Positions 6,001 to 9,000 of a stretch of 64,000 nucleotides of DNA are shown here, piece after piece. A program made the position numbers. Source of the stretch: Leucoraja ocellata (Eukaryota); assembly GCA_036785375.1 (NCBI GenBank), contig JAWMAR010000346.1:496001-560000 (forward strand), read 5' to 3'. Numbering within the stretch: position 1 is the stretch's first letter; each line of letters begins with the position of its first letter.

Positions 6001-9000
6001 GGAAGTGAAAGGGATGCGAAATATCAACCAAGACAGTTTAGTTTCGGCACGAGTTTCCAGCGTGTGTGGTTGTATTGAAATTGCAGCAATGATAACCTTG
6101 CACTGTGTTCCAGCAATAACCCGAAGCCATGGGGGATCAGGAGATGTTCGTGTTTGGCAAGGCAGCATTGTATTTGCGTAAGTCTGATAAGGAAAGGATT
6201 GAAGCGCAGAACCGTCCGTTCGATGCCAAAACTGCTTGTTATGTCCACGAAGCCAAAGAACTGTACGTGAAAGGGAACATCAAAAGTAAGGAAGGTGGCA
6301 AAGTCACCGTGGAGACACTGGGCAAAAAGGTCAAGAATTAAACGTGAATATATTATTTTTGAAATTCTTCACCGTATTGACTTTTCCTTAAATAACACGA
6401 TGGCTTGTTGATCTTTCAGATCCTAACTGTCAAAGACGACCAGGTCTACCCAATGAACCCTCCAAAATTCGATAAAATAGAGGACATGGCCATGTTGACC
6501 CACCTGAACGAGGCATCCGTGTTGTATAACCTCAAAGAGCGTTATGCAGCCTGGATGATCTACGTAAGTACAACTAACACAGAAGGCCATCCTTTGACAC
6601 AGCTCTCCAATTAGTTCTAATCTCCGTAGCTTCTTCCCAAAAGTCACACAGAACAATACGGAATCCAATTTCAAGTGCCGATGGAATGCGATTTCACATT
6701 TCAAGGAGTCTATGCCAGATATTAATAATTCCCTGAACGTAAAAAAAATCTCACCCCTAAAATGTAATTGGATCGGATCTGCAACATTTGTCCCTATGCA
6801 CGCGTGCCCCGTGGAGGATTTAGAAATTGCAGAATTTGTTTTGAACTCTGTTTACAAACCCATGGCAGGCACACTCTACCAGATTTTCATGGCAACTCCA
6901 GTGATTTAAAGACTCTTGCTCTTGCATCCTCTTCTAACTGTAAAATGGAAAGATTAAATCAATAAATGAAAGAAACTTCGTATGAAACTCTTCTCTGCCT
7001 GTAGACCTACTCTGGATTGTTCTGTGTCACCGTGAACCCCTACAAGTGGTTGCCCGTGTACAATCCCGAAGTTGTAATTGGATACAGGGGGAAGAAGCGT
7101 CAGGAAACTCCACCCCACATCTTCTCCATCTCCGACAGCGCTTATCAGGCCATGTCAACTGGTAAAGAGAGTTCCATTTTCCCCAGTATGGTACTGCGAT
7201 TTTGATTTCTTTAAATTAGAATCATGGCACAAATTCATACATAATTTTTCATTTGACTTACAGACCGGGAAAACCAGTCTATCTTGATCACGTAAGTGTT
7301 GTACTTTCTGGTTACCCTTTTAAACCATTTTATTGCTTGTGGGGTAATTGCTGCTTTCTTCACGATACACTGTCACCTCCTCCAGCGGGGAATCCGGGGC
7401 GGGGAAGACGGTGAACACGAAACGTGTCATCCAGTACTTCGCATTGGTTGCAGCTGTCAGTGACGCCGGCAAGAAGAAGGAGGCACAAGCAGCATCCGGC
7501 AAGGTAGGGTCAGAAGCGACTTCAGAACATCGGAAACTTCTCATGGCTTAGTTGGAATTCATTTCTTCACTTAGTCAATTCTCCAACTCAGGGTGACCAA
7601 ATGTATTTTTACAGGGGACCCTGGAAGATCAAATCATCCAGGCTAACCCACTGCTGGAAGCCTTCGGAAATGCCAAAACTGTGAGAAATGACAATTCGTC
7701 TCGCTTCGTAAGTCCCTTGAAACTTTCCTACGTTACACATCGTAATGCCAAATCTGGTGACTATCCAGTTTAACATTGGAACGGTTTCAATAACATATTA
7801 TGCTCGCTCTCTGATAGTGTTTCATCTCTGACTTGAATAACCTTTCACATTCAGGGTAAATTCATCAGGATTCACTTCGGTACCACTGGGAAGCTGTCTT
7901 CTGCTGACATTGAAACATGTAAGTAGAGCAGATGTAGAAATGCAAACTTTGGTTACTATTCAAATAGTTGGCACGTTGACTTGGTCTTTGAATTAAATCT
8001 ACATTTCCACGTGTCTCCCCAGATCTACTGGAAAAATCCAGAGTGACATTCCAGCTGAAAGCTGAAAGGAGTTACCACATTTTCTATCAGATGATGACCA
8101 ATCACAAACCAGAAATCGTTGGTAAGATTCAAAGATTTGGAAAGTTTAAAAGTTTCAACATATTATTCTTTGTAATATTATTTTTCATTGCAGCCTCTAA
8201 GTGGACAGATATCAATAAAATTGCTGTTGTCAGCTTAATATAATGTTATGTTCAATTTCAGTTAATGTTTATTGTATATTGTCTCATCTACAAAACTTTC
8301 CAGTATTCTTCTGCAGTTTAAACTCAGTTTAACAATGGAACAGAGAAAATTGAATTATATTTTTGGATTACATGCTGCCGTTCATTTGATTAATCGCAAA
8401 TCCACCAACAGAGCATTTTGCTTCCAACAGAGTCTTGTCTCATTACCACCAACCCCTATGATTTCTCATTCATCAGCCAGGGTGAGATCAGTGTTGCCAG
8501 TATCGATGATAAAGAGGAACTAATGGCAACTGATGTGAGTATCTATTACACACCATCATTTGTAGCTTCCTCTCTTGATAAGTGTATCGTAAGTGTGCAA
8601 ATTTTTCCACGTCCATTGCTTGCAATCTACCTTACTGAGCAAGACTTGGTTTGGGCCTGAATATTAAAAAATAGGAAAACTGTCATGAACCAGAGTTTCT
8701 CTGCATCATCTATAAAAATATTCAAACCTGTAAACTCTTAGCCTAGAACGAGTGTCACGACGACTATTCACATTTCCCAAGCCTTGATTACAAAACTCAG
8801 ATAATGTTTCATTGTGTTGGTCTTTTGGATGTTGTTATTATGTTGGCATTATGTTGGTACGTTGATATTTTGGATGCTACATCTGTTATTTGCATGTACA
8901 GACTGCCATTGATGTCCTGGGCTTCACCATTGATGAGAAGTGGGGTATCTACAAACTAACTGGAGCAGTAATGCACTTTGGAAACATGAGATTCAAGCAA

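What the first reader, a model, noticed from the sequence alone, without database searches (positions are those of the whole stretch)
6989..8146. Gene-conversion tract in which introns are more similar than exons
Seen by manual alignment with 47841-49006: five introns (about 558 nt) differ by about 7 substitutions and one 8-bp duplication, and two of them appear identical. The six exons (559 nt) differ at about 18 sites giving 10 amino-acid changes (P/A, I/T, T/A, S/L, L/A, A/V, G/S, A/G, T/S, S/A). Synonymous differences cluster next to the replacements in the 157-nt exon. Flanking introns diverge sharply. Established: tandem MYH genes undergo interlocus gene conversion. Inference: conversion homogenises the region while selection rejects conversion at specific motor residues, a footprint of functional divergence near the nucleotide pocket.
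Basis: partly seen in the sequence, partly recalled or inferred. Interest (0 to 1): 0.75.

Follow-up and report, generated by a model that had tools for sequence, protein, structure and literature searches.

The report
Mosaic gene-conversion tract in skate myosins
Two neighbouring skate muscle-myosin genes recently copied about 1.2 kb of sequence between them, but two short coding patches kept older differences, a known pattern that here marks residues likely to tune the motor.

Summary
The window holds two intact tandem sarcomeric myosin heavy-chain genes of a skate: A at 6129-23927 and B at 44707-63080. It is not human. A 6989-8146 and B 47841-49006 are 97-100% identical through five introns, while most other introns have decayed to 63-74%. 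Within the tract, exons differ at 18 of 559 sites and introns at 6 of 599 (Fisher p=0.012).

The exon excess comes entirely from two short islands: 7064-7112 (9 differences) and 7444-7484, which covers loop 1 (6 differences). Their divergence is 15-18%, like an older conversion layer nearby. Outside the islands, exons (3 of 469) are no more diverged than introns.

Synonymous differences (7 against 1.25 expected at the intron rate) rule out fresh adaptive point mutation as the main cause. Proteins from other skates show that most of the differing residues are old.

Each island holds one site where all four skate B-type proteins differ from gene A. That fits selection against conversion, as in red/green opsins. 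Patchy repair or a tract edge is not excluded, and no A orthologues were available.

Verdict: a new example of a known kind, of moderate interest.

The parts
6129..23927 (+). Gene A: intact sarcomeric (class II) myosin heavy chain with 38 coding exons and 1940 codons, ending in a TAA stop
   Evidence: tblastn with shark MYH P0072. Splice junctions were resolved: all AG/GT except a GC donor at exon 16, and there are no in-frame stops. Pfam Myosin_head matched single exons.
44707..63080 (+). Gene B: intact tandem paralogue with 38 coding exons and 1937 codons. It is 99.1% identical in protein to Leucoraja erinacea myosin-4 (P0130) outside the tract
6989..8146 (+). Young conversion tract, copy A. 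It covers exons 3-8, introns 3-7, 16 nt of intron 2 and 25 nt of intron 8
   Evidence: 97.2% identity by self-BLAST. There are 24 substitutions and one 8-bp indel in 1158 columns.
47841..49006 (+). Young conversion tract, copy B. The offset from A is +40852 up to A 7754 and +40860 after it
7064..7112 (+). Island 1 in exon 3 (B 47916-47964). It has 9 differences in 49 nt (18.4%): 3 replacements (P/A, I/T, T/A, at chicken S1 positions 137, 141, 151) and 6 synonymous
   Evidence: numbering
7444..7484 (+). Island 2 in exon 5, at the start of and inside loop 1 (B 48296-48336). It has 6 differences in 41 nt (14.6%): 5 replacement nucleotides (L/A, A/V, G/S, A/G) and 1 synonymous. It includes adjacent 2-nt and 3-nt changes
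7156..7156 (+). Isolated replacement S/L (position 167). The A-type S is also found in the Amblyraja B-type protein
7618..7618 (+). Isolated replacement T/S just after loop 1. The S occurs only in window gene B among the skates, so it is probably a young change
7897..7897 (+). Isolated replacement S/A in exon 7. The A-type S is shared with the Amblyraja and Rhinoraja B-type proteins
48607..48614 (+). 8-bp tandem duplication in intron 6 of B
49007..49466 (+). Insertion of about 460 nt in intron 8 of B, made of repeats that also occur elsewhere in the window. It marks the right end of the tract. Beyond it, identity is about 85%
10468..10976 (+). Second young tract: exon 11, intron 11, exon 12, intron 12 and the start of exon 13 (B about 50677-51188). 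It has 4 substitutions plus a 3-bp indel in 509 nt
14875..15409 (+). Third young tract: end of exon 24, intron 24, exon 25 and the start of intron 25 (B about 54613-55147). It has 7 substitutions in 535 nt
16559..16776 (+). Tract limited to exon 28, with 1 difference. The flanking introns are decayed

Best explanation
Two old tandem fast-skeletal-type myosin heavy-chain paralogues of a skate exchange sequence by interlocus gene conversion. Their motor-domain exons 3-8, with the five introns between them, were homogenised recently. The event ended on the right at a large insertion in B, and on the left where intron 2 is no longer homologous.

Homogenisation was incomplete. Two short coding patches kept the older divergence, including its synonymous differences. 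One lies in exon 3 (residues about 137-151) and one at loop 1 in exon 5. A few isolated replacements also remained. One or two differences (7484, 7618) look like new mutations in B.

The most likely reason the patches persist is that haplotypes converted at paralogue-specific residues are removed by selection. The candidate residues are position 137 and the loop-1 A/V site. Tightly linked silent differences then survive with them, giving a 'peak of divergence'.

What is shown: the tract, its borders, the islands, the excess of silent differences, and the age of most residues. What is inferred: that selection rather than patchy repair keeps the islands, and that the residues alter motor kinetics.
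For: - **Conversion.** Introns 3-7 are 97-100% identical (z 22-29). The 11 most decayed of the 24 short introns compared (I1, I13-17, I19-21, I27, I32) are 63-74% identical (z 0.8-7.3). Five others are intermediate at 76-88%.
- **Right border.** The tract ends exactly at the insertion in B.
- **Other tracts.** Three further young tracts exist in the same pair.
- **Islands.** Island 1 has 9 differences in 49 nt and island 2 has 6 in 41 nt (permutation P=5e-5 and 6e-4). Outside the islands, exon divergence is 3/469=0.64% against intron 6/599=1.00%.
- **Island age.** Island divergence of 15-18% matches the older layer in intron 8 (84.8% identity).
- **Silent sites.** There are 7 synonymous differences against 1.25 expected at the intron rate (Poisson 3e-4, Fisher 0.0027).
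- **Old residues.** The Leucoraja protein matches B at 8 of 10 sites. The Amblyraja and Rhinoraja B-type proteins carry A-type residues at 5 and 6 of 10 sites, and B-type V at the loop-1 site.
- **Pointers to selection.** pN in the tract is 0.0259 against 0.026 gene-wide, while pS is 0.056 against 0.155. Position 137 is non-P, and the loop-1 site is V, in 4 of 4 skate B-type proteins. Gene A has P and A there. Among the 12 shark, ray and chimaera proteins, position 137 is P in 11 and the loop-1 site is A in 9.
Against: - The selection step rests on small numbers. N:S of 11:7 against 101:153 gives p=0.087.
- With the tract taken as 7113-8146, the exon excess is not significant (p=0.29).
- Eight of the 10 sites are not consistently paralogue-specific across the skate proteins.
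- No A orthologue was found, so half of the test is missing.
- Positions 141, 198 and loop 1 vary among all cartilaginous-fish MYH proteins compared, so some differences may simply reflect weak constraint.
- The two control tracts show no exon excess: 2/331 against 2/175, and 6/411 against 1/124.
- The GC-bias signature of conversion is weak (p=0.12 and 0.049).
- No reads were available to exclude cross-polishing.
Confidence: 0.55

Rival explanations
1. Neutral mosaic. The same conversion history applies, but the islands are mechanical leftovers. Island 1 is the gap between two separate events, or the edge of the long event. Island 2 is a patch where heteroduplex mismatches were restored rather than converted. 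Such patches can arise only where the copies still pair, which means in exons. No selection on motor residues is needed.
For: - With the tract taken from 7113, the exon/intron contrast disappears (9/451 against 6/583, p=0.29).
- Many tract ends in this gene pair lie at or inside exons.
- Two islands both falling in exons has a chance of about 0.23, because exons make up 559 of 1158 columns.
- Most of the ten sites are mosaic across skates.
Against: - The 75 nt to the left of island 1 are identical, including 16 intron bases. About 3 differences are expected in the 59 exon bases at background rates (my estimate).
- Replacement divergence was not reduced at all, while silent and intron divergence were.
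- Each island holds a site that is B-specific in 4 of 4 skate proteins.
Confidence: 0.27
2. Micro-conversion from a third MYH paralogue. After full homogenisation, short exon patches in A or B were overwritten from another family member. Only exons are similar enough to distant paralogues to receive such patches, which would explain why exons ended up more different than introns.
For: - The island differences are dense and include silent sites and adjacent multi-base changes.
- Among the 12 shark, ray and chimaera proteins compared, A's T at position 151 is shared only with Mustelus P0072 and S. torazame P0111, which belong to a more distant MYH group (about 85% identical).
Against: - The window has no third MYH copy.
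- B's island residues are those of the Leucoraja B-type protein, and the loop-1 V is present in all four skate B-type proteins. They are therefore native to the B lineage.
- A's T151 also occurs in the Rhinoraja B-type protein.
Confidence: 0.08
3. Complete conversion followed by rapid adaptive, or relaxed, point substitution in the exons.
For: - All three isolated exon differences are replacements.
- Two B states (7484 G and 7618 S) are absent from every other skate protein and look young.
Against: - Synonymous differences are 7 against 1.25 expected.
- The differences are clustered.
- Eight of the ten B states are already present in the Leucoraja protein, and several A and B states are shared with Amblyraja or Rhinoraja.
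Confidence: 0.05
4. Assembly artefact. The two copies were partly collapsed or cross-polished, creating false identity.
For: Tandem near-identical segments are prone to this, and no reads could be inspected.
Against: - The copies keep 24 substitutions and an 8-bp indel.
- The identity ends at a real structural difference, the insertion in B.
- Three other tracts show the same behaviour.
- B's tract peptides agree with an independently annotated Leucoraja protein at 180 of 183 residues.
Confidence: 0.05

Closest known systems
Primate red/green opsin genes (introns homogenised, exon 5 divergent)
   Same: These are tandem paralogues with frequent conversion. Their introns are more alike than an exon, and a peak of divergence is centred on functionally important replacements. 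This is described in PMC3924837 (passages of section 3.2 read), which cites Teshima & Innan 2008.
   Different: In opsins the protected residues have measured spectral effects, and orthologue/paralogue trees from several species have been made. Here the function is inferred, only B-type orthologue proteins were available, and the statistics are marginal.
Gene conversion in vertebrate skeletal MYH tandem arrays
   Same: The gene family and arrangement are the same. Homogenisation by conversion and hypervariable loops 1 and 2 are reported in bioRxiv 10.1101/2025.10.28.684953 (passages read). Its reference list cites Moore et al. [quoted passage not shown] I saw that paper only as a citation.
   Different: The preprint has no occurrence of 'shark', 'skate' or 'cartilaginous'. 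The passages read do not describe an intron-versus-exon contrast within a tract.
Islands of divergence in converting paralogues (GOT1 in Tigriopus; HMA4 in Arabidopsis halleri)
   Same: Both show mosaic divergence in paralogues under conversion, and islands are taken as pointers to selected regions (PMC3728101 and bioRxiv 10.1101/2025.10.29.685298; abstract openings seen in search listings only).
   Different: The genes and organisms differ, and I did not read these papers beyond the listing.

Membership tests
Sarcomeric class II myosin heavy chain | Myosin motor domain with P-loop and switch I | tested here: met
   Pfam PF00063 matched 6 of 6 single-exon peptides, 4 of them above the curated cut-off. 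The GESGAGKT and NDNSSRF motifs are present and identical in both copies. The motif names are recalled.
Sarcomeric class II myosin heavy chain | Full-length head, neck and coiled-coil rod, collinear with known MYH | tested here: met
   Both genes match residues 3-1929 of the 1937-aa shark MYH P0072. The exon models give 1940 and 1937 codons with no stops.
Interlocus gene-conversion tract | Paralogue identity far above flanks, including non-coding sequence | tested here: met
   Introns 3-7 are 97-100% identical, against 63-74% for the 11 most decayed of the other 16 short introns compared.
Interlocus gene-conversion tract | Abrupt borders | tested here: met
   Identity ends at A 6989 and A 8146. 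The right border is at the insertion in B.
Interlocus gene-conversion tract | Paralogues within a species closer than orthologues between species in the tract (tree incongruence) | not testable with these tools
   No nucleotide sequence of other skates is reachable. Only proteins of B-type orthologues were found.
Interlocus gene-conversion tract | Raised GC in converted segments | tested here: inconclusive
   Converted introns have GC 0.34 against 0.30 for the others. Mann-Whitney p=0.12 (A) and 0.049 (B).
Selection-maintained peak of divergence (opsin type) | Non-coding sequence homogenised while coding differences persist | tested here: met
   Exon 18/559 against intron 6/599, p=0.012. pN is unchanged from the gene-wide value.
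Selection-maintained peak of divergence (opsin type) | Divergence peaks centred on replacements, with linked silent differences | tested here: met
   There are two islands, and 6 of the 7 silent differences lie in island 1 next to replacements.
Selection-maintained peak of divergence (opsin type) | The protected residues are paralogue-specific across species | tested here: inconclusive
   2 of 10 sites (position 137 and the loop-1 A/V site) are consistent in 4 of 4 skate B-type proteins, and 8 of 10 are mosaic.
Selection-maintained peak of divergence (opsin type) | The residues change protein function | not testable with these tools
   This needs motor kinetics. The role of loop 1 in ADP release is recalled, not tested.

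The most novel reading that the evidence does not exclude
A small set of alternative residues at about six motor-domain positions (137, 151, 167, 198, loop 1, exon 7 S/A) may have been kept as a two-state system in the two tandem paralogues through the whole skate radiation. Conversion would shuffle these states between copies in each lineage. Selection would never let either state be lost, and would always keep position 137 and the loop-1 site paralogue-specific. That would be a natural map of kinetic-tuning residues of a vertebrate muscle myosin.
Probability: 0.2. Interest if true: 0.6.

Novelty: new member of a known kind. Interest (0 to 1): 0.35.

Why it matters
If selection does protect these patches, the conversion tract works like a natural fine-mapping experiment. 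Everything neutral around the protected sites has been erased. That leaves a short list of residues in and before loop 1 that probably distinguish the kinetics of two skate muscle myosins. Those residues could be tested directly in recombinant motors. The locus also extends the conversion-with-islands pattern, so far described for opsins and a few other gene pairs, to cartilaginous-fish MYH clusters. The one broad MYH survey I could read does not mention those clusters.

Tried and rejected
- **A orthologues.** A search with the most A-specific exon (exon 1) found nothing above 83% identity. They may be hidden inside 90% clusters such as the 31-member Hypanus cluster P0125.
- **Loop-1 exon search.** It was resent with three following intron bases and added only Rhinoraja P0243.
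- **GC-biased conversion.** The signal is weak.
- **Conserved RNA in the identical introns.** There were no Rfam matches at gathering thresholds in the whole window and no tRNA.
- **Intronic or intergenic protein genes.** The four open frames of 180 aa or more outside the MYH exons have no Pfam match.
- **Third MYH copy in the window.** None was found.
- **MYH in a mammalian concerted-evolution survey.** PMC2720389 does not mention it. PMC6157964 mentions only GC-biased conversion.
- **Not done.** Split codons were left out of the dN/dS counts.

Full report
**What the window is.** The window has no N. It carries two complete sarcomeric myosin heavy-chain genes in tandem on the + strand: gene A (6129-23927) and gene B (44707-63080). 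I located them with a shark MYH protein (P0072) by tblastn. I then resolved every splice junction. Each gene has 38 coding exons. All junctions are AG/GT except a GC donor at exon 16 in both copies. The models give 1940 and 1937 codons with no in-frame stop.

Single-exon peptides match Pfam Myosin_head. Outside the tract, gene B is 99.1% identical in protein to Leucoraja erinacea myosin-4 (P0130) and 97.0% to an Amblyraja radiata protein (P0127). Gene A reaches at most 92.7% to any of the 16 cartilaginous-fish proteins compared. The window therefore comes from a skate close to Leucoraja. I do not take it for human.

Codons split by introns were left out of the substitution counts.

A 6989-8146 aligns with B 47841-49006 at 97.2% identity. 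The six exons total 559 nt and differ at 18 sites. The five internal introns total 558 nt. They differ by 6 substitutions and one 8-bp tandem duplication in B, and introns 4 and 7 are identical.

Counting the identical intron stubs at both ends, the contrast is exon 18/559 (3.22%) against intron 6/599 (1.00%), Fisher p=0.012.

**Context: an old pair with a patchwork of conversions.** I compared 24 short introns by global alignment against shuffles. They fall into three classes:

| Class | Identity | z-score | Introns |
|---|---|---|---|
| Recently homogenised | 97-100% | above 16 | 3-7, 11, 12, 24 |
| Intermediate | 76-88% | 8-15 | 22, 25, 28, 34, 35 |
| Nearly decayed | 63-74% | 0.8-7.3 | 1, 13-17, 19-21, 27, 32 |

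Synonymous divergence per exon ranges from 0 to 0.62.

Besides the focal tract there are further young tracts:
- 10468-10976, with 4 substitutions and a 3-bp indel.
- 14875-15409, with 7 substitutions.
- An exon-28-only tract at 16559-16776, with 1 difference.

Intron 8 and its neighbours form an older layer at about 85% identity.

The right end of the focal tract is exactly where B carries a ~460-nt insertion built of repeats seen elsewhere in the window. Beyond it, identity drops to about 85%. On the left, the tract ends 16 nt before exon 3, where intron 2 (441 nt in A, 2712 nt in B) no longer aligns. A recombination tract stopping at heterology is what conversion predicts. Purifying selection on intron elements is unlikely, because no Rfam family matches anywhere in the window.

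**Where the exon excess comes from.** The 18 exon differences are not spread out.
- Nine lie in 7064-7112 (18.4% divergence).
- Six lie in 7444-7484 (14.6% divergence).

A maximum of 9 in 49 nt has permutation P=5e-5, and 6 in 20 nt has P=6e-4. The window sizes were picked after seeing the data. Outside these two islands the exons differ at 3 of 469 sites (0.64%), which is less than the introns. Island divergence equals that of the older layer in intron 8.

By Nei-Gojobori counts on whole codons, the tract has 7 synonymous differences on 124.8 sites and 11 replacement differences on 424.2 sites. The synonymous rate (0.056) exceeds the intron rate (0.010): Fisher p=0.0027, with 1.25 expected. 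The bulk of the exon differences therefore cannot be new mutations driven by selection after a complete conversion. They are older sequence that was not overwritten.

**Age of the residues.** I compared the ten sites with 16 cartilaginous-fish MYH proteins and with a Rhinoraja protein found later.

At 92 sites outside the tract that discriminate A from B, the skate proteins score as follows (A-like / B-like / other):

| Protein | Outside tract (92 sites) | Inside tract (10 sites) | Fisher p, A-like fraction inside vs outside |
|---|---|---|---|
| Leucoraja | 3 / 87 / 2 | 2 / 8 / 0 | 0.074 |
| Amblyraja | 17 / 69 / 6 | 5 / 2 / 3 | 0.036 |
| Rhinoraja | 20 / 64 / 8 | 6 / 2 / 2 | 0.016 |

All three are therefore B-type orthologues.

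A's unusual residues recur in B-type proteins of other skates:
- T at position 151 in Rhinoraja.
- S at position 167 in Amblyraja.
- L at position 198 in Rhinoraja.
- S in exon 7 in both Amblyraja and Rhinoraja.

B's V in loop 1 is present in all four skate B-type proteins. Position 137 is never P in those four, whereas gene A and 11 of the 12 shark, ray and chimaera proteins have P. Only two B states are private to the window: G at 7484 and S at 7618. About two new exon mutations would be expected from the intron rate and the gene-wide constraint (my estimate).

Most differences thus predate the divergence of skate genera and families. The 1% intron divergence shows the homogenisation is much younger. 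This age ordering rests on protein divergences only and is an inference.

**Selection or mechanics.**

For selection:
- Replacement divergence in the tract (0.0259) is the same as in the 29 equal-length exons outside it (0.026). Exons 1, 15 and 38 were left out for length differences.
- Over the same comparison, synonymous divergence fell from 0.155 to 0.056, and intron divergence fell to 0.010.
- Each island contains one site that is B-specific in all four skate proteins.
- Island 2 is loop 1, the hypervariable surface loop beside the nucleotide pocket. The variability is reported in bioRxiv 10.1101/2025.10.28.684953 (passages read). Its role in ADP release is recalled, not tested.

Against selection:
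- N:S of 11:7 against 101:153 gives only p=0.087.
- If island 1 is treated as the edge of the long tract, exons 9/451 against introns 6/583 give p=0.29.
- Eight of the ten sites are mosaic among species.
- The two other young tracts show no exon excess.
- No A orthologue could be examined.

A purely mechanical reading is possible. Mismatch restoration can occur only where the copies still pair, which means in exons. That would also place leftover patches in exons.

I rate the steps as follows:
- The conversion itself: about 0.9.
- Retention of older islands: about 0.8.
- Selection as the reason for retention: about 0.5.

**Position in the protein.** By alignment to chicken S1 (2mys_A), exon 3 residues 1-51 correspond to 117-167. 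The exon 3 sites are therefore 137, 141, 151 and 167.

Exon 5 residues 1-35 correspond to 179-211 with two gaps. Its sites are therefore about 198, 205, 206 and 209-211.

The P-loop and switch I sequences are identical in A and B. 'Near the nucleotide pocket' is a fair description of loop 1. It does not apply to the catalytic motifs themselves.

**Comparison with what is known.** The pattern is the one described for primate red/green opsins. There the introns are homogenised by conversion, with a peak of divergence in exon 5 around the spectral-tuning residues (PMC3924837, passages of section 3.2 read, citing Teshima & Innan 2008). Conversion in skeletal MYH arrays is also known. It is mentioned in the preprint above, which cites Moore et al. 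1992; I saw that paper only as a citation. That preprint has no occurrence of 'shark', 'skate' or 'cartilaginous'.

My four literature searches did not turn up an intron-versus-exon contrast inside an MYH conversion tract. That is weak evidence of absence, because subscription papers are not covered. I file this as a new member of a known kind.

**What stayed unchecked.**
- Nucleotide sequences of other skates.
- A-type orthologues.
- Other MYH paralogues of this genome as possible donors.
- Reads.
- Expression.
- Any functional effect.

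Noticed in passing
window 6420-6563, 16559-16776 and other exons: Several exons (2, 23, 28) are 97-99.5% identical between A and B although their flanking introns are decayed. Conversion in this pair is therefore often limited to a single exon plus a few intron bases. Tract ends tend to sit at exon borders.
   Followed up: partly
window 12091-12439, 17702-17867, 22679-22783: Exons 17, 18, 30 and 36 have synonymous divergence of 0.44-0.62. They look like the least converted parts of the pair and give the best idea of its true age.
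   Followed up: no
window 7508 / 48360 and 7260 / 48112: Two of the six intron differences in the tract lie in splice-site regions. One is at position +5 of the intron 5 donor (G in A, T in B). The other is at position -4 of the intron 3 acceptor (A in A, G in B). The effect on splicing is unknown.
   Followed up: no
window 11838-11925 and 52010-52097: Exon 16 has a GC rather than a GT donor in both copies.
   Followed up: no
window 11590-11663 vs 51799-51863: Exon 15, in the loop 2 region, is three codons shorter in B (65 nt against 74 nt). It is only 87.7% identical, so it is a second hypervariable-loop difference between the copies.
   Followed up: no
window 29107-30629, 34076-34646, 2084-2189, 63855-63995: Interspersed repeats are shared among the intergenic region, the introns and the window ends, including an inverted pair at 29107-29732 / 30629-29983. 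The four open frames of 180 aa or more outside the MYH exons have no Pfam match. No tRNA-like element was found by ARAGORN.
   Followed up: partly
window 40751-40856: A short tandem repeat with a 23/46-nt unit and about 4.6 copies lies in the intergenic region upstream of gene B.
   Followed up: no
gene A as a whole: Gene A is further than gene B from every cartilaginous-fish protein compared. At 92 discriminating sites, the Hypanus protein is B-like at 48 and A-like at 32. Gene A therefore seems to evolve faster. No orthologue of it appeared among database representatives.
   Followed up: partly
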